From assembly GCA_964555185.1 (NCBI GenBank), contig CAZKRD010000001.1, positions 303,272 through 367,271 on the forward strand: a DNA stretch of 64,000 nucleotides, written 5' to 3'. The stretch is from an uncultured Candidatus Saccharibacteria bacterium. Its GTDB lineage: Bacteria; Patescibacteriota; JAQUNI01. This document shows, one piece after another, positions 23,149-52,065 of the stretch (the first letter of the stretch is position 1; each line of letters begins with the position of its first letter). The translations under genes were made by a program, and so were the position numbers. The notes below the pieces were generated by a model. It saw only the letters and a list, made by a program, of their open reading frames with translations. It did no database searches and was not told the DNA's origin.

Positions 23149-23211
23149 AATTAGTTGGAGATTTATTATTTTCTTGGTAGAATAAAAATAGGATAAGTTT
23201 ATCTATCGTAG

Positions 23212-38433: not shown

Positions 38434-38505
38434 CGGGGATTGGCCTAATGGTAAGGCGCACGATTCGGGTTCGTGAGACTCCGGGTTCAAATCCCGGATC
38501 CCCGA
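38434..38505 (+). tRNA. tRNA-Pro (anticodon CGG); CCA not encoded
   Basis: Hand-folded. Acceptor stem CGGGGAT/ATCCCCG (7 bp). D arm gcct-aatggta-aggc. Anticodon stem cacga/tcgtg with loop ttCGGgt (U33, G37). Variable loop agact. T arm ccggg-ttcaaat-cccgg. Discriminator A. Confidence 0.8.
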
Positions 38506-38515
38506 CAAAGGTGAT

Positions 38516-38588
38516 GATCAAGTCTTGCTTTTTGGTATTTTAAGAAAAACTAAAACATCAAAATATAAGATTTGATCTCATTTATCCT
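38516..38588 (+). repeat. Island repeat family A, copy 1 (immediately 3' of tRNA-Pro)
   Basis: gatcaagtcttgctttttggtattttaagaaaaactaaaacatcaaaatataagatttgatctcatttatcc. Related copies start at 41545, 45031 and 51906, with a partial copy at 46001. Confidence 0.6.
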
Positions 38589-38637: not shown

Positions 38638-39324
38638 ATGCCACCATCTGGAAAACACAAAGCCGAAGGCCACAGAAAGCGACTCAGAGAAAGGTTTTTA
38701 CAGGGCGGATTTGATGGTTTTCTTGATTATGAAATAGTAGAGTTGCTTTTAACTTTGGGTACTCCTAGAAAAGACTGTAAACAAATGGCAAAAGAGGCGA
38801 TAAAAAAGTTTGGAGGATTGCGGGCCGTGCTTGATGCTCAGTCTGAAGAATTGCAGCAGATTAAAGGCATCGGCCCTTTTAATGTTTTTGGTATCAAGCT
38901 TTTTCAGGCGGTATCCGAACGTTACGCCAAAGAACAGATACCGAAAAAAATTACACTTAATACGTCAGAAGCAGTAGCTAGTTTTTTACAAAAATCTATT
39001 GGCCGAGAAAAGAAAGAGCACTTTGTTATGTTATCTTTAGACGCGCATAATAATTTGATCAAGATTAGTAATATATCCACTGGTTCGTTGACCGCGAGTA
39101 TTGTCCATCCACGGGAAGTTTTTAAGGAAGCAATTAAAGCTTCTTCCGCGCAAATTATAGTTGCCCATAATCACCCATCAGGAGATACTGAACCTTCTCC
39201 GGAGGATGTCGCGCTTACTAGGCGACTTGAAGAAGCGGCCAAAATATTTGGCATCGGACTTCTTGATCATCTTATTATTACCAAAGATAAATTTTCTAGC
39301 TTAAAAGAACAAAATTTAATGTAA
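38638..39324 (+). CDS. RadC-like JAB/MPN-domain protein
   Basis: 228 aa. The HhH-like N-terminus and C-terminal JAMM-like motif IIVAHNHPSGDTEPSPEDVALTRRL are characteristic of the RadC/UPF0758 family. Confidence 0.7.
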   Translation: MPPSGKHKAEGHRKRLRERFLQGGFDGFLDYEIVELLLTLGTPRKDCKQMAKEAIKKFGGLRAVLDAQSEELQQIKGIGPFNVFGIKLFQAVSERYAKEQIPKKITLNTSEAVASFLQKSIGREKKEHFVMLSLDAHNNLIKISNISTGSLTASIVHPREVFKEAIKASSAQIIVAHNHPSGDTEPSPEDVALTRRLEEAAKIFGIGLLDHLIITKDKFSSLKEQNLM

Positions 39325-39328
39325 ATTT

Positions 39329-39676
39329 ATGTCCGATATAAAAAATCTTACAGAAAAAATTAATAAATTTCGGGATGAGCGAGATTGGAAGCAATTCCAT
39401 AATCCTAAAGATGTTGCACTCTCCCTTGCTTTAGAGGCGGCAGAGGTTATTGAACATTTTCAATGGAAGAATAATCAAGAAGTAGCCAAGTATATTAAGA
39501 GCAATAAAGATGATATAGGAGAAGAGCTAGCAGACGTATTGTATTGGGTTTTACTTATGTCTCACGATCTTGAAATAGATATAAAGGAGGCGCTCGAAAA
39601 AAAGATTGCAAAAAATGAAAAAAAGTATCCCATAGACAAATCAAAGGGCAAGCACAATAAATACAACAAACTTTAA
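39329..39676 (+). CDS. MazG-like nucleotide pyrophosphohydrolase
   Basis: 115 aa. EAAEVIEHFQWK...EELADVLYWVLLMSHDLEIDIKEALEKKIAKNEKKY fits the all-alpha MazG/NTP-PPase fold with the EExxD/E motif. The start is 4 nt after the RadC stop. Confidence 0.7.
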   Translation: MSDIKNLTEKINKFRDERDWKQFHNPKDVALSLALEAAEVIEHFQWKNNQEVAKYIKSNKDDIGEELADVLYWVLLMSHDLEIDIKEALEKKIAKNEKKYPIDKSKGKHNKYNKL

Positions 39677-39679
39677 ATT

Positions 39680-41539
39680 ATGATCCTGTATGAAAATACA
39701 ATAGAGCATTTTAACGAAGATGTAATGCAAAATTGCGTTGCGGATCGTGCGGCTGAAAAATACCGAGCATATTATAATAGGGATCCTGGTAATTCCGAGT
39801 ATCGGTCTTGGAGAAACTCACTTGCCATTCTAAATAATAGTTTTATCTATGCCGGATTAAAAAATAACCATATAATTATAGAATATGAACTTCCTTATTC
39901 ATCACGCAGAATTGATGTTTTGCTTTTTGGAAATGATCCTGATGGAGAAGAAAATATTGTCATGATGGAACTCAAGCAATGGTCGAATGAAAACGTTGAA
40001 GACTCTGCATCAGAAGGTAATGTAATTGTTGATTACGGGAAATTCAAAAAAGAACAAGTGCACCCTGCGTTGCAAGTGCAGGGATATCATTTTGGTTTAA
40101 AAGATTTTCTTGGAATTTTTGAACAAAAAAACGCTCCAGAGCTAAGTTCATGTGCATATGCACATAATTATTCAAAAGAAGATAGCACTGTTCTTTTTTT
40201 ACCTAAATTTTCTAGTACAATCAAGACATTTCCTTTATTTGCGAAGGAAGATGCTGTTGAATTGGGGCGGTATCTTAAAGATCGACTTCAAGGTGGCGGT
40301 GGGAAAATAATCTTTGAGCGTTTTGCAAGAAGCGCAATTAAGCCATCTAAAAGACTTCTTGATCATACGTCAGAGATGATAAATGAACAGCAAATTTTTA
40401 ATTTAATTGATGAGCAAATTACTGCCTATAATGCGATAATGCACAAAGCCAAACAGCTTGCGAAAACAAAGCAGAAAGCTGTAGTCATAGTAAAAGGTGG
40501 TCCAGGTACGGGAAAATCTGTGATAGCATTAGAAGTTATGGGAGAACTTTTACGACAAGGGAAAAGGGTTATGCATGCCACAGGATCATCCGCGTTTACA
40601 AATACATTAAGGAAGATAGTGGGTATGCGAGCAAGAAATCTCTTTAAATTTTTTAATAGCTTTATTGCAACGGAGCCAGATTCTTTTGATGTGCTTATTT
40701 GTGATGAAGCCCATCGTATAAGAGAATCGAGCATGAGTAGATATACTCCAAGGGCTCAAAGAACAAATTTGCCTCAGATAGATGAATTGCTAAGAGTAGC
40801 AAAATTAAATATTTTCTTTTTAGATGAGCATCAAATCGTACGGCCAAGTGAAATTGGCGGCATTGCGATGCTTAAGGAGGCCGTTAAACGTTTTGGTATT
40901 AATGATAAAAATGTAGCTGAATTTGAATTAAAAACACAATTTCGTTGTTCTGGATCAGATGCTTATTTACAATGGCTTGATCATGTTTTAAGGATTCGTG
41001 ATACGGAAATGAGAGAGTTTGATGCAAAAATGGAATTTCGTATTTTCGATAACCCTTCAGATATGATGTCTGAAATTCGAAAGAGGAACAAGGAAACATC
41101 AAACTCAGCTCGCATAGCAGCGGGGTTTTGTTGGCCTTGGAGCAAACCAAACCCGGAAGGTTCATTAGTAAAAGATGTAAAAATTGGAAATTTTGCAATG
41201 CCATGGGAGAAGAAAGATCAATTTTGGAAATGGGCAACAGATGATTCAGGCATGGAACAGGTTGGTACTATATATACGGCTCAGGGATTTGAATTTGATT
41301 ATATTGCTGTAATTTTCGGTAACGATTTAGTTTTTGATCCGGTTGAAAATAAATGGCAGGCAGTGCCGGAGAATTCTCATGATACACAAGTAAAACGCAA
41401 TAACCCAAATCTCACGAATCATTTAAAAAACGTTTATCGCGTGCTTCTTTCTCGGGCCCATAAGGGCGTGTATGTTTATTTTATGGATAAAGATACAGAA
41501 AAATATTTTAAGAGTTATTTACCGGAAATAAAATCATGA
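39680..41539 (+). CDS. DUF2075-type nuclease-helicase (N-terminal PD-(D/E)xK nuclease plus P-loop SF1-like ATPase)
   Basis: 619 aa. N-terminal PD-(D/E)xK-like motif IEYELPYSSRRIDVLLFG...IVMMELKQWS; Walker A KGGPGTGKSVIALEV; DEAH-like ICDEAHRI. The start is 3 nt after the MazG stop, so the three genes look like one operon. Confidence 0.65.
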   Translation: MILYENTIEHFNEDVMQNCVADRAAEKYRAYYNRDPGNSEYRSWRNSLAILNNSFIYAGLKNNHIIIEYELPYSSRRIDVLLFGNDPDGEENIVMMELKQWSNENVEDSASEGNVIVDYGKFKKEQVHPALQVQGYHFGLKDFLGIFEQKNAPELSSCAYAHNYSKEDSTVLFLPKFSSTIKTFPLFAKEDAVELGRYLKDRLQGGGGKIIFERFARSAIKPSKRLLDHTSEMINEQQIFNLIDEQITAYNAIMHKAKQLAKTKQKAVVIVKGGPGTGKSVIALEVMGELLRQGKRVMHATGSSAFTNTLRKIVGMRARNLFKFFNSFIATEPDSFDVLICDEAHRIRESSMSRYTPRAQRTNLPQIDELLRVAKLNIFFLDEHQIVRPSEIGGIAMLKEAVKRFGINDKNVAEFELKTQFRCSGSDAYLQWLDHVLRIRDTEMREFDAKMEFRIFDNPSDMMSEIRKRNKETSNSARIAAGFCWPWSKPNPEGSLVKDVKIGNFAMPWEKKDQFWKWATDDSGMEQVGTIYTAQGFEFDYIAVIFGNDLVFDPVENKWQAVPENSHDTQVKRNNPNLTNHLKNVYRVLLSRAHKGVYVYFMDKDTEKYFKSYLPEIKS

Positions 41540-41544
41540 AAGAG

Positions 41545-41632
41545 AATTGATGGTCAAATTTTACTTTCTGACATTTTAAGAAAGATTAAAACATCAAAAT
41601 ACAAAATTTAAGCCTATTTATCTGGCCCCATT
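41545..41632 (+). repeat. Island repeat family A, copy 2
   Basis: aattgatggtcaaatttt...cattttaagaaagattaaaacatcaaaatacaaaatttaagcctatttatc. It shares the gattgatggtcaa prefix with copy 4 and starts 6 nt after the DUF2075 stop. Confidence 0.55.
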
Positions 41633-41781
41633 CTCTCCCTTTGTCATCTCCGACTTGATCGGAGATCCAGGGTTTTAGAGCAAGAATCCTGGATTCCCGC
41701 TTTCGCGGGAATGACAAGCGTGTCGTGGCTTCACAGGATTCCTTCCAAGTTTCTCCGACTATGGAGTATTTGTACACATAT

Positions 41782-41810
41782 AAAAAAACAGAGTCGACCC
41801 CATTTTGCAC
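41782..41810 (+). repeat. Repeat family C motif AAAAAACAGAGTCGACCCCATTTTGCAC, copy 1
   Basis: Related copies start at 44390, 45004, 47440 and 54951; a degenerate second copy lies at 41820-41845. Confidence 0.55.
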
Positions 41811-41927
41811 TAGCTAGGGAAAAACAGAGCCGGTCCCATTTCATCAATTTGGTGCGGGGGGAGGTGAGATCTAGGGTTGGAATCTCCAAAAATGTTATAA
41901 TAAAGATAAGTTTTTCAATAAATAAGC

Positions 41928-41987
41928 AAAAATGGGGTTAGGTCTTGAATAGTGAATTGTTAAAATCAGAAATGTCTCCATTTTTTT
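41928..41987 (+). repeat. MITE-like element family B, copy 1 (forward, 3' truncated)
   Basis: aaaaatggggttaggtcttgaatagtgaattgttaaaatcagaaatgtctccattttttt. Inverted termini: AAAAATGGGG / CTCCATTTTT. Confidence 0.6.
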
Positions 41988-41999
41988 AAAAATTTCGTT

Positions 42000-42377
42000 A
42001 TGATACAAATTGATACAATTTATAATCGTTATGGAGAACCGAGATTGCGATTACGCAGCAATGGTCGTTTGGTTGATTTTTCTGGACGAAATATCGGATT
42101 TTTAAGTGGAGATAATCTTTATAATGATGAAGGTCGCCATGTTGGTTGGTATGAAGGAGGTATAATGAGAGATCATGGGGGTTTTTGTACGGGCTTCGGG
42201 GAAAATGTGACTGACCAACTTCATCCCCTGCTTCCTGTGCGACAATTGAAGCCTGTTCCAGCTTTACCCCGATTCGAGCCGTTAAGACCCCCAAAGCGTT
42301 TATCCCCATTAAAGCCTTACAAATCTTTTAGATGGTCAAACTTCGACCCGATAGATTTGTTTTTAATGTATGAATAA
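42000..42377 (+). CDS. Hypothetical protein (internal GR.IGFLSGDNLYNDEGRHVGWYEGG repeat-like segment)
   Basis: 125 aa, no recognisable family. It overlaps the next ORF by 8 nt. Confidence 0.35.
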   Translation: MIQIDTIYNRYGEPRLRLRSNGRLVDFSGRNIGFLSGDNLYNDEGRHVGWYEGGIMRDHGGFCTGFGENVTDQLHPLLPVRQLKPVPALPRFEPLRPPKRLSPLKPYKSFRWSNFDPIDLFLMYE

Positions 42378-42801
42378 TATAAGCAAAAAAGGTGAGGGTA
42401 ATAGAAACCAAATCAGCTCAAAGAGTGCCAAGCCCGAACTATCTTTAGGTTATACACAAAGAGATTTAAAAAACCCTGGTGTTGCAAAGGGAATATTGGC
42501 AGAAAATCAAAGGCTCCAAGGAGAGGCAAATCAACTGAAGAAGTCATTAAGGTTAACACAGGACAGTTTTGAGAAGTTAAGGCAAAAATATCATACCAGA
42601 GATAAAGAAAATGCAGTAATGAAAGAGAAGTACTCACTTCTTTCGAGGTTTGAAATTATAAAGTCACTTTCTTTAATCGGCGTTGGTTCGGCGATTTCAT
42701 TTTTAATAGATAAAAAATATTTAACAGCGGCGGCGACTGGTATTATATCATTCATTCTATTGCTAGTTGTAACACGTAAAGATACTAAGGTAAAAAGATA
42801 A
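42370..42801 (+). CDS. Hypothetical coiled-coil protein with C-terminal TM helix
   Basis: 143 aa; coiled-coil segment then a hydrophobic tail LIGVGSAISFLI...IISFILLLVV. Confidence 0.35.
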   Translation: MNNISKKGEGNRNQISSKSAKPELSLGYTQRDLKNPGVAKGILAENQRLQGEANQLKKSLRLTQDSFEKLRQKYHTRDKENAVMKEKYSLLSRFEIIKSLSLIGVGSAISFLIDKKYLTAAATGIISFILLLVVTRKDTKVKR

Positions 42802-42821
42802 TCTTCTATTGCATTTGAGGG

Positions 42822-42878
42822 GAAATGGGATCAGGTCTTGAATAGTGAATTGTTAAAATCAGAAACGTCCCCGTTTTT
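42822..42878 (+). repeat. MITE-like element family B, copy 2 (forward)
   Basis: ggaaatgggatcaggtcttgaatagtgaattgttaaaatcagaaacgtccccgttttt. Confidence 0.6.
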
Positions 42879-42916
42879 CTTAGCCCTAAAGTTTTAATTG
42901 CGAAATATATTCTCGT

Positions 42917-43390
42917 ATGAAAAAATCAACTATTGATTTATGTGTTTGCATGATACTTTTTAACAAAAAATTTGAATTTTTGCTTGTTAAAAAGTTTCAT
43001 GAAACTGAAAAGATAGGAGGTCTTTGGGTTCTTCCGGGCGGAGGCGGCGGTTTTGCCGATGCCAGAAGTTTTTCAGCTTTGGCAAAGCAAGAGGTGGAGT
43101 ATGATTTGAATGAAAATTATAATAAAAATAAAAAGAAAGGTCAATGGATTAACTTTGAGGTTGAGGAGGGCGCTATTAAAATTTTCAAGACTCAACCTAG
43201 CGAAAAAAAAATTATAATTTATACTTACTGCAACAATTACGAAGGGACTCCCACTCCGAATAATAAGGATATAATAGACTTTCGTTGGTTTCCTATTAAG
43301 AAGATTCGGGAGTTTGGCATGGTTGGGAAAATCGCTTACGGAAATCATTTAGTGATTTATGATTTTTATAGAAAATTTATAGAAATTTAA
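42917..43390 (+). CDS. NUDIX-fold-like protein with degenerate Nudix box (possibly inactive)
   Basis: 157 aa. GGLWVLPGGGGGFADARSFSALAKQEVEYDL resembles the Nudix box GX5EX7REUXEEXGU, but the catalytic E and R are replaced. Confidence 0.35.
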   Translation: MKKSTIDLCVCMILFNKKFEFLLVKKFHETEKIGGLWVLPGGGGGFADARSFSALAKQEVEYDLNENYNKNKKKGQWINFEVEEGAIKIFKTQPSEKKIIIYTYCNNYEGTPTPNNKDIIDFRWFPIKKIREFGMVGKIAYGNHLVIYDFYRKFIEI

Positions 43391-43401
43391 GATGAGAAAT
43401 C

Positions 43402-43436
43402 AAATGGGGACGTTTCTGATTTATTTGGTACAGGTC
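43402..43436 (-). repeat. MITE-like element family B, copy 3 (reverse orientation, partial)
   Basis: aaatggggacgtttctgatttatttggtacaggtc. Confidence 0.4.
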
Positions 43437-43482
43437 GGAAGATCAGAATCAACTAAGATGAAATGAATCAAAAAATTAATCT

Positions 43483-44247
43483 ATGACCAAGCAACCGGCA
43501 CTGGTGGGGATTGTGCCGAGAAAAAATCTCTGGGATGTGATTTGCGAGAAAAGATGGTATCACATCCCGGTGAAGTCGGCTCCCGACAATGTTTCTCTCG
43601 CGGAATTTATCGCCTTTTATTTTCCTAAAATATTCGGCGAAGAGGAAAGATACAAGGTGAATCATTATGCCCAGGTGCGGGCAGTGGATATTGTTAAGAG
43701 AGTCAAGCTTTTCCCAGGGGAGCCAAAACACAAAGGGGCGCATGAAGATTACTTTCAATTTCATCTTGGGGAGATTAAGAGATTGCCGCATCCCATCCCC
43801 AGTAAGAGATGGAGAAGAATTGTTCATATTCCCACCAGTCGTCAAAAATTATTCAGCGCGGAAGAGATTAATGATCTTTACGACACCAGCCCCTTGGAAG
43901 AAAAAGTGTACCGGGAAATGAAGAGACGGCGCATAGACGCCGAAAGACAGGTGTTTGTCCAAGTCGCAGGCCGGGTGTACTGCCTAGACTTTGGAATCTT
44001 TTGTCGCAATGGCGACATAGATGTTGAATGTGATGGTGAGAAATACCATATTTTACCTGATGCCTTAACCAGGGACAGAGAGCGCAACAATCAATTAACC
44101 AGCTTTGGCTGGCATGTTTTGAGGTTTTCGGGAAAAGAAATCAACTGGACTCTGGCAAATTGCTTCAAAGTTATTGAGAAAACGATTAGTAATCTGGGTG
44201 GACTGAGGCAAAAGCTTGATAAGTCGGTTAGTATGTTGTTAAGTTAA
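43483..44247 (+). CDS. Protein with C-terminal DUF559 (Vsr/PD-(D/E)xK-like endonuclease) domain
   Basis: The C-terminus YCLDFGIFCRNGDIDVECDGEKYHILPDALTRDRERNNQLTSFGWHVLRFSGKEI matches the DUF559 pattern D...E.DG..H...D..R...L...GW.VLRF. The N-terminal ~150 aa are unknown. Confidence 0.55.
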   Translation: MTKQPALVGIVPRKNLWDVICEKRWYHIPVKSAPDNVSLAEFIAFYFPKIFGEEERYKVNHYAQVRAVDIVKRVKLFPGEPKHKGAHEDYFQFHLGEIKRLPHPIPSKRWRRIVHIPTSRQKLFSAEEINDLYDTSPLEEKVYREMKRRRIDAERQVFVQVAGRVYCLDFGIFCRNGDIDVECDGEKYHILPDALTRDRERNNQLTSFGWHVLRFSGKEINWTLANCFKVIEKTISNLGGLRQKLDKSVSMLLS

Positions 44248-44283
44248 AACAATGGGTATATTATAAAAAATTAAGGGAATACG

Positions 44284-44364
44284 GGGGCAGGTTTTGTATT
44301 TTGGAAAAAATGGAGACGTTTCTGATTTATTTTTGCTAAATTCACTATTGTATGACCTGACCCC
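44284..44364 (-). repeat. MITE-like element family B, copy 4 (reverse orientation, full length ~81 bp, TIR GGGGYCAGGT/GACCTGACCCC)
   Basis: gggggcaggttttgtattttggaaaaaatggagacgtttctgatttatttttgctaaattcactattgtatgacctgacccc. Confidence 0.65.
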
Positions 44365-44389
44365 GTTTGTTGACCCCATTTGTATCCAT

Positions 44390-44417
44390 AAAAAAACAGA
44401 CTCGACCTCATTTTCCC
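44390..44417 (+). repeat. Repeat family C, copy 2
   Basis: aaaaaaacagactcgacctcattttccc, 40 nt upstream of the GNAT start. Confidence 0.5.
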
Positions 44418-44456
44418 TATAATTAAAGCAGGTTATTCTTTATCAAAATTGTTTGT

Positions 44457-44969
44457 ATGCAAGAAAAATATAGTTTCAAAAAGGCAACCTTGAAAGATTT
44501 AGATAAGTTCTTTATTTTCTTTTCTCAGAGCCTTAAAAAACAGTTCCCTCGATATACTCTAAAAACAAGAGATTATTTTATTCGGAAAGAGTATTGCTTA
44601 CAATCTTTAAAGGCTCGATTGAAGAGTAAAGACATTATCATCTATTTAGCAATGCAGGATAAGGAGGTAGTAGGCTATTTTGTGACTGGTGTAATTGTTG
44701 GCGGTGTATGTTTGGCTTTATGGCTGGCAGTATCTAAGAAGCACCAGGGGCAGGGAATTGGCTCACAGCTTTTGCAGATGTGGGAAAAAGATGCCAAGGC
44801 CTTGGGTATACACAAACTTCATCTTTGGACTGACAGAAGAAATTTGAGCTTTTACAAAAAAAGAGGATTCAAATTGCTCGGCAAGGTATCTAAAAACTAC
44901 TACGGCGTTGATGATTATTTATTCTATAAAAGTATTCAGAAGCCCATTGAAAAGAATTTTTTGAAATAA
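44457..44969 (+). CDS. GNAT-family N-acetyltransferase
   Basis: 170 aa. Motif A is HQGQGIGSQLLQMWEKDAKALGIHKLHLWTD, followed by FYKKRGF. Confidence 0.7.
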   Translation: MQEKYSFKKATLKDLDKFFIFFSQSLKKQFPRYTLKTRDYFIRKEYCLQSLKARLKSKDIIIYLAMQDKEVVGYFVTGVIVGGVCLALWLAVSKKHQGQGIGSQLLQMWEKDAKALGIHKLHLWTDRRNLSFYKKRGFKLLGKVSKNYYGVDDYLFYKSIQKPIEKNFLK

Positions 44970-45003
44970 ATATAGTGAGTTGCGGGATGGGATAATTAGA
45001 GTG

Positions 45004-45031
45004 AAAAAACAGAGTCGACCCCATTTTGCAC
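45004..45031 (+). repeat. Repeat family C, copy 3
   Basis: aaaaaacagagtcgaccccattttgcac, 35 nt after the GNAT stop. Confidence 0.55.
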
Positions 45032-45094
45032 TTGTTTTGCGGCATTTTAAGAAAACTGAAAACATCAAAATACAAAATTTGATCCCATTTACAT
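45031..45094 (+). repeat. Island repeat family A, copy 3 (fused to a family C motif)
   Basis: cttgttttgcggcattttaagaaaactgaaaacatcaaaatacaaaatttgatcccatttaca. Confidence 0.55.
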
Positions 45095-45098
45095 CAGA

Positions 45099-45767
45099 AT
45101 GGAACAAAAAAATAAAGTAAAATTTTGGCAGGTTAGCAAGGTGTTGATTGTTATAATACTGCTCTCATTGTTTTTGAAGTGGCTTTTGTCTGTGATGGGC
45201 TCGGATGAGTTTAGGTTGGTTATCGAAAGAGTGGGTATTTTGGGGCCGTTGATTGTTATTATGTATATAGTGGTTTCGCACATTGTAGCCCCACTGGCGG
45301 GCTTGCCTGGTGTTTTGTTAGGAGTTTCTATTTATGGCATTGTGAAAGCAGTCTTTTTTATATACATCGCGGGATTGGTAAGTTGTGCCATTAATTTTTG
45401 GATAAGCAGAAAATTTGGCAGAGAGTGGGTTGCCAAGCTCGCTGGCAAAAAAACAATGAAGCAGGTTGATGATTTTGTGGAGGTAGCGGGTGTTAAGGTG
45501 TTGATTGCGGGCAGGTTATTTGGGTTTGCTTTGTTTGAGATTATCTCTTATGCGGTTGGATTGACTAATATGAGCTTTAGAAAGTATTTTGTTATTACTG
45601 CGGTCTTTTCGGCAATACCGGTTGCTGTTTTCGGCTATGCTTTTAAAAATGTAGATTTTCTTTCCGGGGCTGGGCAGATTTTGTGGATTGGGGCTATCCT
45701 TATTGTTGGCGCTGTGTTCGTTTTTATGATAAAAAGATATATAGAAAGGCAAAAGTCAAAAACTTAA
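45099..45767 (+). CDS. DedA/TVP38/TMEM64-family membrane protein
   Basis: 222 aa polytopic. FWISRKFGREWVAKLAGKK...VLIAGRLFGFALFEIISYAVGLTNM is typical of the DedA/SNARE-associated family. Confidence 0.6.
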   Translation: MEQKNKVKFWQVSKVLIVIILLSLFLKWLLSVMGSDEFRLVIERVGILGPLIVIMYIVVSHIVAPLAGLPGVLLGVSIYGIVKAVFFIYIAGLVSCAINFWISRKFGREWVAKLAGKKTMKQVDDFVEVAGVKVLIAGRLFGFALFEIISYAVGLTNMSFRKYFVITAVFSAIPVAVFGYAFKNVDFLSGAGQILWIGAILIVGAVFVFMIKRYIERQKSKT

Positions 45768-45895: not shown

Positions 45896-46000
45896 AAGTT
45901 ATTGTTTTGGTTTTGTTTTAGAACAAGACATTTTTAGCTTTTATGTTATTATTCTTTTTTCGTTAAAAAGGTTTATTATAAATTATAATAAGAGGATTTA

Positions 46001-46030
46001 GGATCAAGTCTTGCTTTTTCGAATTTTTAG
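46001..46030 (+). repeat. Island repeat family A, partial copy
   Basis: ggatcaagtcttgctttttcgaatttttag, upstream of purD. Confidence 0.45.
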
Positions 46031-46129
46031 ATCGGATTGACAAAGCCACTGCATGGGATGATAATATAGATGAAATGTACATACACAAACAATTGGCCTA
46101 AATAACCGAAATGTTAGAGAGGAGGCAAA

Positions 46130-47401
46130 ATGAGGATTCTAGTGATTGGAGGGGGCGGAAGGGAACACACCTTGGTTTGGAAAATGGCCCAGAGTCCATT
46201 AGTTGATAAGATTTATTGCATTTCGGGCAATGCGGGAATCGCCGCATTGGCAGAGTGTGAGAAAATAGATGTAGATGGTGCGCTGGAGCCCATAGCAGAT
46301 TTTGCGCTGGATAACAGGATAGACCTGACGGTTGTTGGCCCCGAAGATCCGCTTGCAAACGGGATTGTTGACCTCTTTGCCGCTAGTAGGCTGAGAGCTT
46401 TCGGCCCGGACCAGCTAGCAACACAGATCGAGGCAAGTAAAATATTCTCAAAGGAGTTGATGTGGAAGTATGGCATTCCAACCGCCAACGCCGAGATATT
46501 TGACAACCACGAGGAGGCCACCGCATACATTCGTGATGCAGGTGTACCTATAGTGGTGAAGGCAGATGGTTCAGCTAAGGGGAAAGGCGTTATCGTTTGC
46601 CGTGATGAATTGCAGCAGGCTCTGGATGCTGTTAACACGATTATGGTGGAGAAGGCGTTTGGGAATGCTGGCAACAGGATTCTTGTAGAAGAATGTCTGG
46701 AAGGCGAGGAAGCGTCATTCATCGTTTTTACCGACGGTGAGAATATCTTACCCATGTCCTCTTCGCAGGATCACAAGCCCATATATGACGGCGATCGCGG
46801 GCTGAATACCGGAGGAATGGGAGCTTATTCGCCAGCGCCGGTAGTTACGCCAGAAGTATACGACCTTATCATGGAAACCATAATGCTGCCGACCGTAAAA
46901 GGCATGGCTGCTGAAGGGTATCCATACAAAGGTGTGTTGTATGCCGGCTTGATGATAGCCGATGGCAAACCAAAGGTTATAGAATTCAACGCACGGTTTG
47001 GCGATCCTGAAAGCCAGGCAGTACTACCAAGATTGCAAAGTGATATTGTGCCGGTAATGGAGGCCTGTATCGACGGTACACTGGACCAGGCGCAACTGGA
47101 ATGGTCGGACGAGGCGGCCGCATGTGTTGTAATGGCCTCTGGTGGGTACCCTGTAAAATACAAGAAAGGCAAAGTGATAACTGGCCTGGACGTGGCTGGT
47201 GCTATGGAAAACGTAATGGTTTTTCATGCTGGTACCGCGCGACAGGGGGGCAAGATCGTCACTAACGGCGGCAGGGTCCTTGGTGTGACAGCATTGGGTA
47301 AGGATATCGAAGAGGCGGTTATCACTGCTTACGATGCCGTAGGCAGGATATCCTTTGAGGGCGCATACTTCCGAAACGATATTGCCTATCGTGCCCTCTA
47401 A
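46130..47401 (+). CDS. purD: Phosphoribosylamine--glycine ligase (GAR synthetase)
   Basis: 423 aa. N-terminus MRILVIGGGGREHTLVWKMAQS and a central ATP-grasp fold, collinear with PurD over the full length. Strong GGAGG RBS. GC content is visibly higher than the flanking DNA, and long spurious antisense ORFs appear. Confidence 0.85.
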   Translation: MRILVIGGGGREHTLVWKMAQSPLVDKIYCISGNAGIAALAECEKIDVDGALEPIADFALDNRIDLTVVGPEDPLANGIVDLFAASRLRAFGPDQLATQIEASKIFSKELMWKYGIPTANAEIFDNHEEATAYIRDAGVPIVVKADGSAKGKGVIVCRDELQQALDAVNTIMVEKAFGNAGNRILVEECLEGEEASFIVFTDGENILPMSSSQDHKPIYDGDRGLNTGGMGAYSPAPVVTPEVYDLIMETIMLPTVKGMAAEGYPYKGVLYAGLMIADGKPKVIEFNARFGDPESQAVLPRLQSDIVPVMEACIDGTLDQAQLEWSDEAAACVVMASGGYPVKYKKGKVITGLDVAGAMENVMVFHAGTARQGGKIVTNGGRVLGVTALGKDIEEAVITAYDAVGRISFEGAYFRNDIAYRAL

Positions 47402-47439
47402 TTTTTTCATGGGGTCAACTCTCATTTTTCGATTTACTT

Positions 47440-47468
47440 AAAAAATAGAGTCGACCCATTTTTTTTCT
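47440..47468 (+). repeat. Repeat family C, copy 4
   Basis: aaaaaatagagtcgacccatttttttt, 39 nt after the purD stop. Confidence 0.5.
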
Positions 47469-47520
47469 TTCATTTTTTAAGAAGGTGAAGGGCGGATGGA
47501 TCGCTCTTTGGGTGATTTTT

Positions 47521-47529
47521 TGCTATAAT
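47521..47529 (+). promoter_or_regulatory. Extended -10 element TGcTATAAT upstream of recQ
   Basis: A perfect TATAAT with an upstream TG, 31 nt before the ATG at 47560. Confidence 0.35.
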
Positions 47530-47559
47530 CAAAGAATCTCAATCTTTCTTAAAATAAAA

Positions 47560-49737
47560 ATGAAAAAATTACTTAAAGTTCACTTTGGCTATGATCAATT
47601 CCGGCCCCTGCAGGAAGAAATCATTAGTAATGTTCTGGCCCTGAAAGACACTTTTGTCCTGATGCCCACTGGAGGCGGAAAATCTCTCTGCTACCAGCTT
47701 CCTGCAATGAAATTTTCCGGTTTGACTCTGGTGGTTTCCCCGCTTATCTCCCTGATGAAAGATCAGGTGGATTCTTTGAAAGCCAACGGCATTGAGGCGG
47801 AATTTTTGAACTCTTCGCTTCTTCCCCGGGACGCTATGGATATCCGGCAAAAAGTCCAAGCCGGCAAAACTAAGATACTGTATGTCGCGCCGGAGCGATT
47901 GGCTCTTGATTTTTTCCGTAGATTTTTGCATTCCCTCAAGTTAAGCCTTATTGCCATTGATGAAGCCCATTGTATCTCGGAATGGGGACATGATTTCCGC
48001 CCTGAATACCGTAACCTTAAATTTTTCAAAAGAGAGTTTCTCAAGGTTCCTGTTATCGCCCTGACCGCTACGGCTACGCCGAAGGTCCGGGCAGATATTA
48101 TTAAACAACTTTCCTTAAGAAAAGCGAAGCAGTTTGTTTCCAGTTTTGACCGGGAAAATTTGACCTTCTCGGTTCTGCGGAAGAAGAATGCTTTTGAAAA
48201 AGTTATGGCTCTTTTAAAGAGGCACAAAGGCGGATCGGCCATTATCTATTGTTTTTCCCGGCGCGAGACCGAAGAAATTGCCGCCAACCTGAAGATCGAA
48301 GGCATTAAAGCCCTGCCTTATCACGCCGGATTGCCCCGGGAGATCCGCAAGCGCAACCAGGAACAATTCATCAAAGACGAGGCGCGGGTCATTGCCGCGA
48401 CTATTGCCTTTGGCATGGGCATTGACAAGCCTGATGTCCGTCTGATCGTCCATTACACTTTTCCGAAAACTTTGGAAGGATATTACCAGGAAATAGGGCG
48501 CGCAGGCCGCGACGGCCTGCCGGCTGAATGCGCCCTTCTTTATTCGTACGGAGATATCCGCAAGCATGAATTCTTTTTGGGGCAGATGGAAAATACGCAG
48601 GAACAGGAGAATAGCCGCCAAAAACTTAACCAGGTTGTGGAATACTGCCAGGGAAGAGGATGCCGCCGGAAATATCTGCTCCAATATTTCGGAGAGGAGT
48701 ATCCAAGGAAAAACTGCAAGGGTTGCGACAGCTGTCTTCGGCCTAAAATAGAATATGAGGCCACCGAGATTGCCCGGAAGATCCTTTCTTGCATTCTGCG
48801 CACTGAATCCCGGTTCGGTAAAAAATATGTCATTGATCTGCTTCGAGGCAAGGCCACCGCGCGGATAACCGGCAACGGCCACCAGACTCTTTCAGTCTTT
48901 GGGATTGTCCGGGATTTGACCATTGAAGAAATGAGGGAGGTGATCAATGACCTGATTTCTCTCGGCTATCTATCTTCTTCTGAAGGAATGTATCCCACTC
49001 TTTCGGTCACAGCTCACGGCATTCAATTTCTTAAGGAAAAACAGAGCCTTACCCTTTCCCGGATAACGCAGGATCTCCTGGATTATGAAGAGGAAGAATC
49101 AGCCGGAGTGGAAGCGCAGTATGATATTCGGCTCTTTGAGAACTTGCGCGTCCTGCGAAAGCAGATCGCGGATGAGCGGGGAGTGCCGCCTTTTGTTATT
49201 TTCGGCGATGCTGCTCTATATGCAATGGCTCGGTATTTTCCGGTCGATCCAGATAATTTTTTAAGAATTCAGGGAGTGGGAGAAAGAAAGCTGGAAAGTT
49301 TTGGCAATTCTTTTATGGATGTTATTTTAAAATATGTTAAGGAGAACAAGCTTAAGCCGGAAATGGTTCCTGACCGGAGCAGAATTAAACGCAACCGGGC
49401 GCGCAGAAAAGTTAAGGCAGGTTCAACCTATCGGGAAACAAAGGAGCTGATTGATCAAAAGACCTCCCTGCGGGAGGTCGCCAGGGCGAGGGGATTAAAG
49501 CCGGGAACGATCATCAGCCATCTGGAAAAACTGGTTATAGCCCAGGCAAAGATTGATCTTGATTATCTCAAACCGTCCGGTAAAGAATGTCGGGAAATCC
49601 AATCCGCTTTTCAAAAATGCGGATACAAATGGCTTAAGCCTGCTTATGATTTTTTGGATGAGAAATATACCTACGACCAGATCCGCCTGGTCAGAGTGAT
49701 AAGTAGCATCCGGCAATCCCGGAGAGAGGCAGGGTAG
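47560..49737 (+). CDS. recQ: ATP-dependent DNA helicase RecQ (helicase, RQC zinc-binding, winged helix and HRDC-like C-terminus)
   Basis: FGYDQFRPLQEEII, P-loop MPTGGGKSLCYQLPA, DEAH (IDEAHCISEWGHDFRPEY), and a four-cysteine RQC (CRRKYLLQYF...CKGCDSC). The track start at 47485 is GTG, so the ATG at 47560 is used. An extended -10 TGcTATAAT sits at 47521-47529. Confidence 0.85.
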   Translation: MKKLLKVHFGYDQFRPLQEEIISNVLALKDTFVLMPTGGGKSLCYQLPAMKFSGLTLVVSPLISLMKDQVDSLKANGIEAEFLNSSLLPRDAMDIRQKVQAGKTKILYVAPERLALDFFRRFLHSLKLSLIAIDEAHCISEWGHDFRPEYRNLKFFKREFLKVPVIALTATATPKVRADIIKQLSLRKAKQFVSSFDRENLTFSVLRKKNAFEKVMALLKRHKGGSAIIYCFSRRETEEIAANLKIEGIKALPYHAGLPREIRKRNQEQFIKDEARVIAATIAFGMGIDKPDVRLIVHYTFPKTLEGYYQEIGRAGRDGLPAECALLYSYGDIRKHEFFLGQMENTQEQENSRQKLNQVVEYCQGRGCRRKYLLQYFGEEYPRKNCKGCDSCLRPKIEYEATEIARKILSCILRTESRFGKKYVIDLLRGKATARITGNGHQTLSVFGIVRDLTIEEMREVINDLISLGYLSSSEGMYPTLSVTAHGIQFLKEKQSLTLSRITQDLLDYEEEESAGVEAQYDIRLFENLRVLRKQIADERGVPPFVIFGDAALYAMARYFPVDPDNFLRIQGVGERKLESFGNSFMDVILKYVKENKLKPEMVPDRSRIKRNRARRKVKAGSTYRETKELIDQKTSLREVARARGLKPGTIISHLEKLVIAQAKIDLDYLKPSGKECREIQSAFQKCGYKWLKPAYDFLDEKYTYDQIRLVRVISSIRQSRREAG

Positions 49738-50035: not shown

Positions 50036-51331
50036 ATGGAAATTCTATTTTGCGTATTATTATTAATTTCACTGATTTGTCTGGTGATAGGGCTTATAAG
50101 GCCCCGTTATGTTTTGATTTTTTTAGAAGGGACTAAAACGAGAAAAAAGGCGCTTTTGATTTTTGGCATACTTAGCATTATATTTCTTGTTTCATTCAGC
50201 TTGACCATCACTGTGTTCAGTCCATTTAGACAACAGCCTGGAAAGGGAATCTTTCCTGTTGTTGAAAAAGAAGCAGAAGAAGAATCCCCAGAGACTCCTC
50301 AAAAAGAAGGTTTAGAAGAAAAGAAAGTATCAGAAGAGCCAGAAGAGAGTCAGCCGGAACCAAAAGTTTACGCTGTATCCATAGGTGACATTGCCAAGAC
50401 AGAATTATTGCGGCTAACTACGTGGACCGACGGGGCGGTTTCCATGGATGTGCCCGTGAACTGGAATATTTATACCGGGGGTCAATGCGCTACAAAGTCA
50501 ATCTTAGCCAGAGATCCTTCTACTGAATTAAAGCAGGTTTTTTATTTTTCAGAAGCCGGACCGGTTTATACCAGCCAAGAATCAAAACAAAGGGATCAAA
50601 ATTATGTCGCTATGGGCGGTAATAAGCTTTCCTACTTCGAAAGTCCGGTAGTAAATCCGTTGACCGCTGAAAATTATTTAAAGAATTTTGGAGCTTTTGC
50701 TATTACTTCTTTGTTTCAACAAGCATTCCCGGAGGTTCCCGTTATGACTGATATAAAAATAATAAGCAAAAAAGAAATTACTGATAAACCGCATTATGTG
50801 ACTGATGGAAAGTTAATAAGGGCAGAATTCAAGCAAGGCGGTAAGTCAGGGGAAGGATATTTTCATATCATAACCGCGGATCTTGGGATGGGCTTCGGAT
50901 ATGGAATGATGTTTGTTGGAATGACAGCCCCGAAGGGCTTGCTTGATTTGATAACACCTTCATTAAAGAAAAGCTTAGAATCTTACGTAATAAGTCAGGA
51001 ATATGTAAGTGCTTGTTTACAGGCGCAGAATAAGGCAGCAGCCGGGATATTAAAAGCAGGCAGGATATTAAGCCAGAGTTCTGATACTATAATGGAAGTC
51101 TGGGAGAATAAGCTTGAATCAGAGCAAAGGATGTCAGAAAAATATAGTGACGCTATTTTGGGAAGCAGCAGGTTGTATAATCCTCAGACTGATGAGGTTT
51201 ATGTAGTTACCCCCGAATTCTATGATTTTTATCAAATTCATAATACAGAATTTGAGAAGAATTATTTACAAGAAATGCCCAATGATAAATGGGGTCATGC
51301 TCCTCTAAATGGGGCCGAATATATATATTAA
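50036..51331 (+). CDS. Hypothetical membrane-anchored protein (2 N-terminal TM helices, acidic linker, large extracytoplasmic domain)
   Basis: 431 aa with no recognisable family. The N-terminal hydrophobic helices are followed by an E/P-rich linker. Confidence 0.45.
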   Translation: MEILFCVLLLISLICLVIGLIRPRYVLIFLEGTKTRKKALLIFGILSIIFLVSFSLTITVFSPFRQQPGKGIFPVVEKEAEEESPETPQKEGLEEKKVSEEPEESQPEPKVYAVSIGDIAKTELLRLTTWTDGAVSMDVPVNWNIYTGGQCATKSILARDPSTELKQVFYFSEAGPVYTSQESKQRDQNYVAMGGNKLSYFESPVVNPLTAENYLKNFGAFAITSLFQQAFPEVPVMTDIKIISKKEITDKPHYVTDGKLIRAEFKQGGKSGEGYFHIITADLGMGFGYGMMFVGMTAPKGLLDLITPSLKKSLESYVISQEYVSACLQAQNKAAAGILKAGRILSQSSDTIMEVWENKLESEQRMSEKYSDAILGSSRLYNPQTDEVYVVTPEFYDFYQIHNTEFEKNYLQEMPNDKWGHAPLNGAEYIY

Positions 51332-51905: not shown

Positions 51906-51968
51906 ATTGATGGTCAAGCCTTGCTTTTTGGCATTTCGAAAAAAACTAAAACATCAAAATCAAAGCGC
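51906..51968 (+). repeat. Island repeat family A, copy 4 (candidate distal boundary of the island)
   Basis: gattgatggtcaagccttgctttttggcatttcgaaaaaaactaaaacatcaaaatcaaagcgc. About 44 of 50 positions match copy 1. Confidence 0.55.
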
Positions 51969-52065
51969 TTTTTTTATTTGACGAAAGTCTTTTTTATTTA
52001 TATTATTCAGATAGATGGTTTTCCAAAAATTTAAATAAATACAAAAACAATTTAATCAAAAATTC

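What the first reader, a model, noticed from the sequence alone, without database searches (positions are those of the whole stretch)
46130..49737. Compositionally distinct (GC-rich) block carrying an orphan purD and a recQ inside the island
Across purD and recQ the GC content rises to roughly 48-52% by eye, against about 40% in the neighbouring genes. This produces long spurious antisense ORFs (for example 46213-46755, 46825-47172, 47024-47425, 48214-48882 and 48540-48947 on the minus strand) that are absent elsewhere. purD (GAR synthetase) is a single step of de novo purine synthesis, and no other pur gene lies nearby. An isolated purD in a genome with a CPR-like reduced repertoire would be metabolically odd and suggests horizontal acquisition or a moonlighting role. 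Both genes are preceded by family C motifs and have canonical SD or extended -10 signals, unlike many native genes here.
Basis: partly seen in the sequence, partly recalled or inferred. Interest (0 to 1): 0.65.

Follow-up and report, generated by a model that had tools for sequence, protein, structure and literature searches.

The report
Imported purD beside a native recQ
In this tiny-genome (CPR/Patescibacteria) bacterium, the purine-synthesis gene purD was imported from an unrelated bacterial lineage and has been kept intact, while the neighbouring recQ helicase is an ordinary native gene, so the "GC-rich block" is two unrelated things side by side.

Summary
The GC rise is real: the block is 0.479 GC against a window mean of 0.424, with purD at 0.508 and recQ at 0.471. 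It is not unique, because the native SecA–SecD stretch reaches 0.482. It looks sharp mainly because the DNA upstream (38.6–45.8 kb, after tRNA-Pro) is unusually AT-rich.

The block is not one unit.
- **purD is foreign.** Apart from a 90%-identical copy in a sister CPR genome, its nearest relatives (70–78% identity) are non-CPR bacteria in which purD sits in a purH'–purD–purE cluster. The CPR copies nest inside that clade in 100 of 100 bootstraps. purD is the only long gene here whose synonymous codon usage is closer to those donor contigs than to its own genome. DNA homology to the donors stops at the ends of the coding sequence.
- **purD is intact.** It passes the purD equivalog model, keeps 104 of 107 near-invariant residues, and has dN/dS of 0.20, like core genes.
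- **recQ is native.** Every named homologue is from a CPR lineage.

"Orphan purD" is only partly tested. No other pur gene lies in 81 kb of the 707-kb scaffold, and the rest could not be read. Moonlighting is unsupported.

The parts
38434..38506 (+). tRNA-Pro (CGG). It marks the start of the AT-rich variable segment, and a D1 repeat copy abuts its 3' end.
   Evidence: ARAGORN; Rfam tRNA, 67 bits; D1 copy at 38512-38586.
38638..45767 (+). Low-GC variable segment encoding RadC, MazG, an SLFN/DUF2075-type helicase, Bflower, NUDIX, a DUF559 nuclease, GNAT and VTT/DedA. It creates the contrast that makes purD-recQ look like a GC island.
   Evidence: GC3 is 0.27-0.43 for most of these genes. The helicase is the strongest codon outlier, z 10.3. 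The sister contig L085 carries different genes upstream of purD.
45992..46026 (+). Truncated copy (D2) of the ~75-nt D1 intergenic repeat, immediately upstream of the purD promoter-like site.
   Evidence: the repeat finder families D1/D2; alignment with sister copies. In this window the family occurs only at 38.5-52.0 kb.
46037..46065 (+). Sigma-70-like promoter candidate for purD (TTGACA-17-GATAAT, 11 of 12 matches).
   Evidence: Consensus scan. It lies inside the stretch conserved with the sister genome, which starts at 46024. Function is inferred.
46120..46125 (+). AGGAGG Shine-Dalgarno sequence, 4 nt before the purD ATG.
   Evidence: Read directly from the sequence.
46130..47401 (+). purD, phosphoribosylamine-glycine ligase (GAR synthetase), 423 aa. 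A xenolog from a non-CPR lineage.
   Evidence: Pfam GARS_N/A/C. TIGR00877 scores 545 bits against a cut-off of 288. Collinear with PDB 3mjf and 1gso. Nearest non-sister relatives are 70-78% identical non-CPR proteins. Nested in the donor clade in 100 of 100 bootstraps. Codon usage is nearer to the donors. Donor DNA homology covers only 46128-47384. dN/dS is 0.20.
47412..47466 (+). Terminator-like hairpin followed by a U8 tract, downstream of purD. Its 3' arm is a copy of repeat family D3.
   Evidence: RNA fold of -16.4 kcal/mol, z -4.1, matched by 0 of 200 shuffles; D3 copy at 47440-47468.
47521..47529 (+). Extended -10 element (TGCTATAAT) upstream of recQ.
   Evidence: Read directly from the sequence. 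Function is inferred.
47560..49737 (+). recQ, ATP-dependent DNA helicase, 725 aa from ATG 47560 (the open frame begins at GTG 47485). Native CPR gene.
   Evidence: Pfam DEAD, Helicase_C, RecQ_Zn_bind, RQC, HRDC and HTH_40. TIGR01389 scores 744 bits against a cut-off of 640. All named homologues at 55-62% identity are CPR lineages. The N-terminus is placed from the translation.
46213..48947 (-). Span containing seven antisense ORFs of at least 100 aa. They are by-products of codon choice, not genes.
   Evidence: purD and recQ have the lowest stop density in the codon-aligned antisense frame (6.3 and 5.5 per kb, against 7.6-22 for other genes), because they avoid TTA/CTA/TCA. The sense frames have full-length family matches.

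Best explanation
The 'GC-rich block' is two unrelated neighbours in a Patescibacteria (CPR, Parcubacteria-type) chromosome.

(1) purD was acquired by horizontal transfer from an uncultured non-CPR lineage with about 51-52% GC. NCBI labels two of that lineage's MAGs 'Candidatus Poribacteria'. In that lineage purD sits in a conserved purH'(short)-purD-purE-tsaC cluster. Only the coding sequence survives in the CPR genome. It landed just upstream of recQ, at the edge of a variable AT-rich segment that follows tRNA-Pro. It now runs as a single-gene unit with local signals: a sigma-70-like promoter, an AGGAGG ribosome-binding site and a hairpin terminator. The transfer predates the split from a sister lineage about 90% identical in protein. 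Since then the gene has stayed an intact GAR synthetase under purifying selection, and its composition has only partly drifted towards that of the host.

(2) recQ is a vertically inherited, or at most intra-CPR, full-length RecQ helicase. Its GC is what conserved core genes have in this genome.

The long antisense ORFs are by-products of both genes avoiding TTA/CTA/TCA codons.

Shown: gene identities, phylogenetic placement, codon signature, synteny and selection. Inferred: promoter and terminator function, enzymatic activity, and that purD feeds a purine pathway whose other genes lie elsewhere in the genome.
For: **Host identity**
- The window is part of a 706,972-bp scaffold.
- The best named SecA hits are Parcubacteria and Torokbacteria at 72-74% identity, followed by other CPR.

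**purD is foreign**
- After the sister copies (90%), the next 50 or so hits are 70-78% identical. That is higher than SecA's identity to its nearest CPR relatives outside the sister.
- The five such contigs inspected are non-CPR. purE lies downstream of purD in four (L087, L088, L089, L095), and a short purH-type gene lies upstream in L086, L088 and L089. L087 and L088 carry sulfatase genes and L086 carries MEP-pathway genes.
- The same purH'-purD-purE-Sua5 order occurs in named Thermodesulfobacteriota and related genomes.
- In an NJ tree of 77 taxa with 100 bootstraps, the CPR trio is monophyletic in 100 and nested within the donor clade in 100.
- purD GC (0.508) matches the donor contigs (0.51-0.52). 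It shares their ATA, CTG, CAG, AAC and CAC preferences, which differ from the CPR core.
- purD is the only gene of at least 300 aa that is closer to the donors' non-purD genes (B 0.268) than to the rest of the window (0.357). SecA and SecD, with equal GC3, are not.
- blastn homology to the donors covers only 46128-47384. No purH or purE remnants flank the gene.

**Not an assembly artefact**
- The same junctions appear in the ENA scaffold, in Logan contigs from several runs and in JGI contigs from two samples.

**purD is intact and under selection**
- It matches the TIGR00877 equivalog model.
- 104 of 107 near-invariant columns are kept.
- There is no rate acceleration.
- dN/dS is 0.20 and dS 0.26, within the range of core genes.

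**recQ is native**
- All named hits are Minisyncoccia, Pacebacteria, Parcubacteria, Andersenbacteria, Moranbacteria, Falkowbacteria, Peregrinibacteria or Patescibacteria.
- It matches the TIGR01389 equivalog model.
Against: - The donor lineage is not securely named. Bona fide sponge Poribacteria PurD sequences (L074, L082) are only 54-56% identical to both the CPR and the donor proteins.
- No PurD labelled as CPR was available as a comparator, because only the top 120 hits are visible. 'Foreign' therefore rests on nesting among non-CPR contigs rather than on an explicit CPR PurD clade.
- The tree is distance-based, not maximum likelihood.
- recQ also deviates from core codon usage (z 6.1). It lacks the 72-74% tier of relatives that SecA has, so an intra-CPR transfer of recQ cannot be excluded.
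- The other pur genes that purD would need were not found in the 81 kb that could be read.
Confidence: 0.8

Rival explanations
1. purD and recQ arrived together as one horizontally acquired GC-rich cassette inside a genomic island.
For: - The two genes are adjacent and both have elevated GC.
- Both are codon-usage outliers, z 4.9 and 6.1.
- Both avoid TTA and favour CTG and AAC.
- They lie within the 38.5-52 kb zone that holds the repeated intergenic elements.
Against: - RecQ relatives are CPR, whereas PurD relatives are non-CPR.
- The two genes deviate from the core in different codons: purD in AGG, ATA and GTA, and recQ in CGG, GTC, GGA and TCC.
- recQ remains closer to window codon usage than to donor usage.
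- Donor homology ends at the purD stop codon.
- The five donor contigs inspected have no recQ next to purD.
- A terminator-like hairpin and a separate promoter-like site lie between the two genes.
- No integrase or other mobility gene was found in the segment.
Confidence: 0.05
2. No transfer at all. Both genes are native, and their higher GC reflects amino-acid composition and the conservation typical of housekeeping genes in an AT-leaning genome.
For: - GC3 of both genes (0.51-0.52) equals that of enolase, SecA, SecD and rubrerythrin.
- The native SecA-SecD stretch has the same overall GC.
- The excess GC in purD sits largely at codon positions 1 and 2 (0.597 and 0.408).
- dS and dN/dS against the sister are like those of the core.
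Against: - PurD is 76-78% identical to proteins on non-CPR contigs and is nested among them in 100 of 100 bootstraps.
- Its synonymous codon choice is closer to the donors' unrelated genes than to its own genome, unlike core genes of equal GC3.
- This rival is correct for recQ, which is already part of the best explanation.
Confidence: 0.05
3. purD is a true orphan. The genome has no other de novo purine genes, and the enzyme is kept for a non-canonical role, such as a metabolic hand-off with a host cell or a moonlighting ATP-grasp activity.
For: - No purE, C, F, M, N or H was found in 81 kb of the scaffold or in 47 kb of sister contigs.
- Only the purD coding sequence was retained from a donor purH'-purD-purE cluster.
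- Parcubacteria are commonly reported to lack purine synthesis (PMC5220378).
- The gene has been kept under purifying selection in two lineages.
Against: - About 88% of the scaffold, plus any other scaffolds of the genome, could not be inspected.
- pur genes are often scattered in bacterial genomes (general knowledge).
- 32% of 399 CPR MAGs in one survey had a complete de novo IMP module (PMC11608272).
- The protein keeps 104 of 107 near-invariant PurD positions and shows no rate acceleration. That is what ordinary PurD function predicts, not a new function.
Confidence: 0.2
4. Assembly or binning chimera: a purD fragment from another organism was stitched into a CPR scaffold.
For: - Foreign phylogenetic signal and foreign-like codon usage are confined to one gene.
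Against: - The same purD-recQ junction and downstream order were recovered independently in an ENA scaffold, in Logan contigs (one of them seen in 5 runs) and in JGI contigs from two other samples.
- The sister copy has diverged in step with the flanking core genes, with dS 0.26.
- The nearest donor sequence is only 75% identical in DNA.
Confidence: 0.01

Closest known systems
PurD / GAR synthetase (NCBIfam TIGR00877; Pfam GARS_N, GARS_A, GARS_C; solved examples 1GSO from E. coli and 3MJF from Yersinia)
   Same: Full-length collinear match with all three domains. It scores well above the equivalog cut-off. 104 of 107 near-invariant positions are kept. This includes the SQDHK, NTGGMGAYSP and EFNxRFGDPE stretches visible in the alignment.
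   Different: The genomic context differs. Its closest relatives sit in purH'-purD-purE-tsaC clusters. Here the gene stands alone between a VTT/DedA membrane-protein gene and recQ in a CPR genome, with no pur gene in 81 kb.
Bacterial RecQ helicase (NCBIfam TIGR01389), in the CPR-typical form with a C-terminal HTH_40 domain
   Same: It has DEAD, Helicase_C, RecQ zinc-binding, RQC and HRDC domains and scores above the cut-off. The hits listed, most of whose names are CPR, share the same architecture, including HTH_40.
   Different: Nothing notable in this genome. In the sister lineage a ~335-bp deletion between CGCAG microhomologies truncates the protein after RQC.
Horizontal acquisition of single metabolic genes by CPR/Patescibacteria from non-CPR bacteria (a general, known phenomenon; from my own knowledge, not tested against a specific published case)
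   Same: A single enzyme gene of non-CPR ancestry is embedded in CPR synteny next to a variable region. It retains donor-like codon bias and is kept under selection.
   Different: The imported gene is one interior step of a roughly ten-step pathway, not a self-contained function. Whether it replaces a native purD, completes a patchwork pathway or stands alone is unresolved.

Membership tests
PurD (phosphoribosylamine-glycine ligase, TIGR00877) | Three-domain architecture GARS_N, GARS_A (ATP-grasp) and GARS_C over the full length | tested here: met
   Pfam E-values of 7e-35, 3e-77 and 6e-34, covering residues 1-421 of 423.
PurD (phosphoribosylamine-glycine ligase, TIGR00877) | Score above the curated equivalog cut-off | tested here: met
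   545.2 bits against a cut-off of 288, aligned 1-423 to 1-424 of 425.
PurD (phosphoribosylamine-glycine ligase, TIGR00877) | Retention of family-invariant residues | tested here: met
   104 of 107 columns that are at least 97% conserved among 149 other PurD sequences are kept. A cultured Caldicoprobacter PurD misses 6. The alignment to 3mjf has only single-residue gaps.
PurD (phosphoribosylamine-glycine ligase, TIGR00877) | Catalyses PRA + glycine + ATP to GAR | not testable with these tools
   Requires an enzyme assay or complementation of an E. coli purD mutant.
PurD (phosphoribosylamine-glycine ligase, TIGR00877) | Operates within a de novo purine pathway encoded by the same genome | tested here: inconclusive
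   No purE, C, F, M, N or H lies in scaffold positions 1-81361 or in 47 kb of sister contigs.
RecQ (TIGR01389) | Helicase core with RecQ zinc-binding, RQC and HRDC domains, scoring above the cut-off | tested here: met
   Pfam domains. 744.2 bits against a cut-off of 640.2, aligned 1-591 to 1-590 of 591.
Horizontally acquired gene (xenolog) | Phylogenetic placement inside a foreign clade, incongruent with host markers | tested here: met
   Met for purD: nested in a non-CPR clade in 100 of 100 bootstraps, while SecA tracks CPR. Not met for recQ, whose named hits are all CPR.
Horizontally acquired gene (xenolog) | Donor-like nucleotide or codon signature distinct from the host | tested here: met
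   Met for purD: B is 0.268 to the donors and 0.357 to the host, the only such gene. recQ is a host outlier (z 6.1) but is not donor-like.
Mobile genomic island carrying purD and recQ as cargo | Integrase or other mobility gene plus flanking att-type direct repeats that delimit the cargo | tested here: not met
   No integrase, transposase or recombinase domain was found among the genes at 38.6-52 kb. D1 repeats occur at 38512 and 51908, but also internally and in the sister genome, where they lie between different genes, upstream of gene starts. They behave like promoter-region repeats rather than att sites. recQ and the downstream genes are syntenic core in the sister.

The most novel reading that the evidence does not exclude
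A CPR episymbiont with no other de novo purine genes keeps a single imported GAR synthetase under purifying selection. It would be one half of a pathway split with its host cell, or would have a new substrate. The donor lineage of the gene could then point to the identity of the unknown host.
Probability: 0.15. Interest if true: 0.6.

Novelty: new member of a known kind. Interest (0 to 1): 0.3.

Why it matters
This is a clean, well-bounded case of a single biosynthetic gene crossing from a free-living-type bacterium into a reduced CPR genome and being kept there. It shows that GC contrast read by eye can merge a real import with a native neighbour.

If the rest of the genome lacks the purine pathway, the case becomes more interesting. 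It would mean either metabolic sharing with a host or a non-canonical use of PurD. The donor lineage would then be a lead to the host of an uncultured marine Patescibacterium. If the pathway is present, this is routine replacement or patching of a pathway gene by a foreign copy.

Tried and rejected
- **Lower-dS cassette idea.** purD, recQ, 50036 and 51432 have dS of 0.19-0.27 against the sister, while genes further downstream have 0.43-0.60. The boundaries coincide with D1/D2 repeats, which suggested a recently exchanged cassette. I rejected this after the control: SecA, SecD, FtsW and iPGM have dS of 0.13-0.31, and MurG, MurC and MurB have 0.52-0.61. The mosaic is genome-wide.
- **Sampling more of the lineage through the D1 repeat.** The first pattern was off by one base. 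The corrected pattern matched only the window's own locus. The degenerate pattern scanned against metagenome contigs returned one 1,084-bp contig. This was a dead end, and it used the only metagenome scan.
- **GTDB genome scan with PurD.** It returned only relatives of at most 62% identity. Neither this MAG nor the 76-78% donors were retrieved. Because the scan needs exact peptide words, their absence is uninformative.
- **Look-up of the first window gene (419-1132).** It failed because the called start differs. I used 1347-2492 instead.
- **First bootstrap run.** It timed out with 152 taxa and was repeated with 77 taxa.
- **Literature.** Searches for purD in Patescibacteria or CPR found nothing specific. 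Only general statements on CPR purine capacity turned up. The sample accession is listed in a marine metagenome survey.
- **Donor label.** I considered 'Poribacteria' as a secure donor name and rejected it. Sponge Poribacteria PurD sequences are only 54-56% identical.
- **D1 as a tRNA-derived att site.** Its 5' part resembles a T-arm but does not match tRNA-Pro. This is left as an untested remark.

Full report
**What the window is**

The window is a piece of a 706,972-bp metagenomic scaffold, ENA ERZ23486238, BAEC19-1_SAMN10404973 scaffold_1. The sample accession appears in a survey of marine metagenomes.

Almost all genes run on the + strand. They include ScpA, glycosyltransferases, DUF4012, enolase, iPGM, FtsW, MurG/C/B, SecA, SecD, SecF, ClpB, MnmA, AlaRS and ribosomal proteins.

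After a 94%-identical sister sequence, the best named SecA relatives are 'Parcubacteria group bacterium LiPW_72' and 'Candidatus Torokbacteria' at 72-74%. Other Patescibacteria follow at 56-64%.

**The observation**

ORF 46130-47401 is a complete PurD and ORF 47485-49737 a complete RecQ.

*GC content*
- GC over 46130-49737 is 0.479, against 0.424 for the whole window.
- 500-bp windows inside the block reach 0.50-0.52. Upstream DNA is 0.34-0.40 and downstream DNA 0.38-0.42.
- purD is the most GC-rich of the 52 genes, at 0.508 against a mean of 0.428 and sd of 0.042.
- The native SecA-SecD segment (20650-24257) has GC 0.482.
- Third-position GC of purD (0.519) and recQ (0.511) matches enolase (0.508), SecA (0.502) and SecD (0.513).
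- The real low outlier is the stretch after tRNA-Pro (38434-38506). From 38.6 to 45.8 kb, GC3 is mostly 0.27-0.43.

*Antisense ORFs*
- The listed antisense ORFs exist, but others of 173-219 aa occur elsewhere.
- They are much denser here. purD has the lowest antisense stop density of all long genes.
- Both genes have the fewest stops in the codon-aligned antisense frame, because they avoid TTA, CTA and TCA.

**Codon usage splits the block**

I compared each gene's codon usage with the rest of the window, using simulations that keep its amino-acid sequence. purD (z 4.9) and recQ (z 6.1) are both outliers. So are the SLFN-type helicase (z 10.3), ORF 50036 (5.9), the minus-strand gene 54987 (5.9) and ORF 6966 (3.7).

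The two genes deviate in different ways.
- purD favours AGG, ATA, GTA, CCA, CAC, AAC and CAG.
- recQ favours CGG, GTC, GGA, TCC and GCC.
- Both favour CTG and avoid TTA.

**purD is foreign**

*Homologues and their context*
- Beyond two sister copies (90%, JGI contigs), the next ~50 PurD homologues are 70-78% identical. None of the named ones is CPR. Two are labelled 'Candidatus Poribacteria bacterium'.
- The five contigs inspected (L086-L089, L095) are from larger-genome bacteria. purE lies downstream of purD in four of them. L088 and L089 show the full order Amidohydro_2, short purH-type gene, purD, purE, Sua5, RpiB, dCMP deaminase. L086 shares the part upstream of purD and L087 the part downstream. 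L087 and L088 carry sulfatase genes and L086 carries MEP-pathway genes.
- The core order purH'-purD-purE-Sua5 also occurs in named Thermodesulfobacteriota and related genomes, whose PurD is about 60% identical.

*Tree*
- In a neighbour-joining tree (77 taxa, 421 columns, 100 bootstraps), the three CPR sequences are monophyletic in 100 replicates.
- In all 100 they are nested inside the 70-78% clade, with members of that clade on both sides. This gives the direction of transfer: into the CPR lineage.

*Composition*
- The donor contigs have 51-52% GC, the same as purD. Their other genes share the ATA, CTG, CAG, AAC and CAC preferences.
- purD is the only gene of at least 300 aa that is closer to the donors' non-purD genes (B 0.268) than to its own genome (0.357). 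SecA and SecD, with the same GC3, are far closer to the window.

*Extent of the import*
- DNA similarity to the donors (68-75%) spans only 46128-47384, which lies inside the coding sequence.
- tblastn finds no purH' or purE remnants around it.

*Caveat*
- Sponge Poribacteria PurD sequences are only 54-56% identical, so the donor's name is uncertain.

**Not an artefact, and not recent**

The purD-recQ junction and the downstream order recur in three independent sources:
- Logan contigs from the same project;
- a JGI 87.6-kb contig, L085;
- a JGI contig from another sample, L091.

Homology between the window and L085 begins at 46024, 106 bp before purD, and continues downstream. The upstream genes differ.

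Against the sister, purD has dS 0.26 and dN/dS 0.20. Core controls span dS 0.13-0.61 and dN/dS 0.08-0.32. purD was therefore already present in the common ancestor, and it evolves like a core gene.

It shows no rate acceleration relative to the donors. It keeps 104 of 107 near-invariant PurD positions. It aligns end to end with solved PurD structures and passes the TIGR00877 equivalog cut-off, 545 against 288 bits. Its GC3 (0.52) lies between the donors' purD (0.59-0.62) and the host average of ~0.44, which fits partial drift towards host composition.

**Expression signals are local**

- A truncated copy of a ~75-nt lineage-specific intergenic repeat lies at 45992-46026 (D1/D2).
- It is followed by TTGACA-17-GATAAT at 46037-46065, AGGAGG at 46120-46125, and the ATG.
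- Downstream, a hairpin at 47412-47457 with a U8 tract folds at -16.4 kcal/mol (z -4.1).
- recQ is preceded by TGCTATAAT at 47521-47529. It most plausibly starts at ATG 47560, because the N-terminus MKKLLKVHFGYDQFRPLQ is the usual RecQ start and homologues cover 96% of the longer ORF.
- The two genes therefore look like separate transcription units. This is inferred from sequence.

**recQ is native**

After the sister (94%), the RecQ hits are 55-62% identical. Every named one is a CPR lineage: Minisyncoccia, Pacebacteria, Andersenbacteria, Parcubacteria, Moranbacteria, Falkowbacteria, Peregrinibacteria or Patescibacteria. The listed hits have the same domain set, including the C-terminal HTH_40. 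The protein passes TIGR01389.

Its codon usage remains nearer the window than the donors. I cannot exclude an older transfer within CPR, because recQ lacks the 72-74% tier of relatives that SecA has and it is a codon outlier.

**Is purD an orphan?**

Only part of this could be tested.
- Precomputed and new domain annotations show no other pur gene in scaffold positions 1-81361.
- A Pfam-verified panel of purE, C, F, M, N and H found nothing in that DNA or in 47 kb of sister contigs.
- The remaining ~626 kb could not be reached with the tools.

Published context cuts both ways. Parcubacteria are often described as lacking purine synthesis (PMC5220378). However, 32% of 399 CPR MAGs in one survey had a complete de novo IMP module (PMC11608272).

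The enzyme is canonical, unaccelerated and under purifying selection. I therefore think it most likely works as an ordinary GAR synthetase in a pathway encoded elsewhere. I put a true orphan at about 20%, and its more exotic reading, in which the gene also points to the host, at about 15%.

**Verdict**

The finding is a real compositional feature whose interpretation is half right. purD is a horizontally acquired, domesticated gene. recQ is not, and there is no single acquired block. This is a new instance of a known kind of event. Interest is modest unless the whole-genome pathway check shows purD standing alone.

Noticed in passing
window 38512-38586, 41548-41622, 45019-45093, 45992-46026 (truncated), 51908-51982; sister L085 655-698 and 5451-5521: A ~75-nt intergenic repeat (D1) lies upstream of gene starts. 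In this window it occurs only at 38.5-52 kb, and it is conserved in the sister genome. The first copy abuts the 3' end of tRNA-Pro. Its 5' part (GGTTCAAGTCTTGCC in the sister) looks like a tRNA T-arm but does not match tRNA-Pro.
   Followed up: partly
window 41787, 44395, 45008, 47444 (D3); 44306, 45804 and, inverted, 41930, 42823 (D4/I3): Two further short repeat families are restricted to the same zone. One D3 copy forms the 3' arm of the purD terminator hairpin. The other copies did not fold convincingly in the stretches tested.
   Followed up: partly
window 49072-49406; L085 ~9956; L091 1657-3547: In the sister lineage recQ carries a ~335-bp deletion between CGCAG microhomologies. It shifts the reading frame and leaves a 522-aa helicase core plus a separate 66-aa HTH_40 ORF. 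It is seen in two independent JGI samples, so it is probably real.
   Followed up: yes
window 38638-45767: An AT-rich variable segment follows tRNA-Pro. It encodes RadC, MazG, an SLFN/DUF2075-type helicase (codon z 10.3, with PADLOC PDC-S41, Nhi and AbiO-like hits), a 2TM-effector-like ORF, NUDIX, a DUF559/MTES_1575 nuclease and GNAT. It looks like a defence or accessory island. The sister has different genes upstream of purD.
   Followed up: partly
window 54987-55556 (minus strand): This is the only minus-strand gene (DPBB_1 domain). It is a codon-usage outlier (z 5.9) and is cleanly absent from the sister contig (junction at L085 15419/15420), so it is a lineage-specific insertion or deletion.
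   Followed up: partly
window 6966-8345: A 459-aa ORF with no Pfam match lies inside the glycosyltransferase cluster. It has GC 0.484, GC3 0.557 and codon z 3.7, and its codon usage is equidistant between host and donor type. It may be another import.
   Followed up: no
L093 1-1175 (about 10 kb upstream of the window on the same scaffold): The A/V-type ATPase catalytic subunit A is interrupted by an intein (Intein_splicing plus LAGLIDADG_3). It is followed by subunits B and D.
   Followed up: no
window against L085 and L090 (sister contigs): Synonymous divergence between the two sister genomes is mosaic. dS is 0.13-0.31 for most genes. It is 0.42-0.61 for MurG, MurC, MurB, rubrerythrin and the genes at 52.0-57.2 kb. 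This suggests recombination among related populations.
   Followed up: partly
window 50036-51331 and 52066-53691: Two large ORFs (431 and 541 aa) have no Pfam, PADLOC or other family match, yet both are conserved in the sister (dN/dS 0.22 and 0.12). ORF 50036 is also a codon outlier (z 5.9) with low GC3 (0.35).
   Followed up: no
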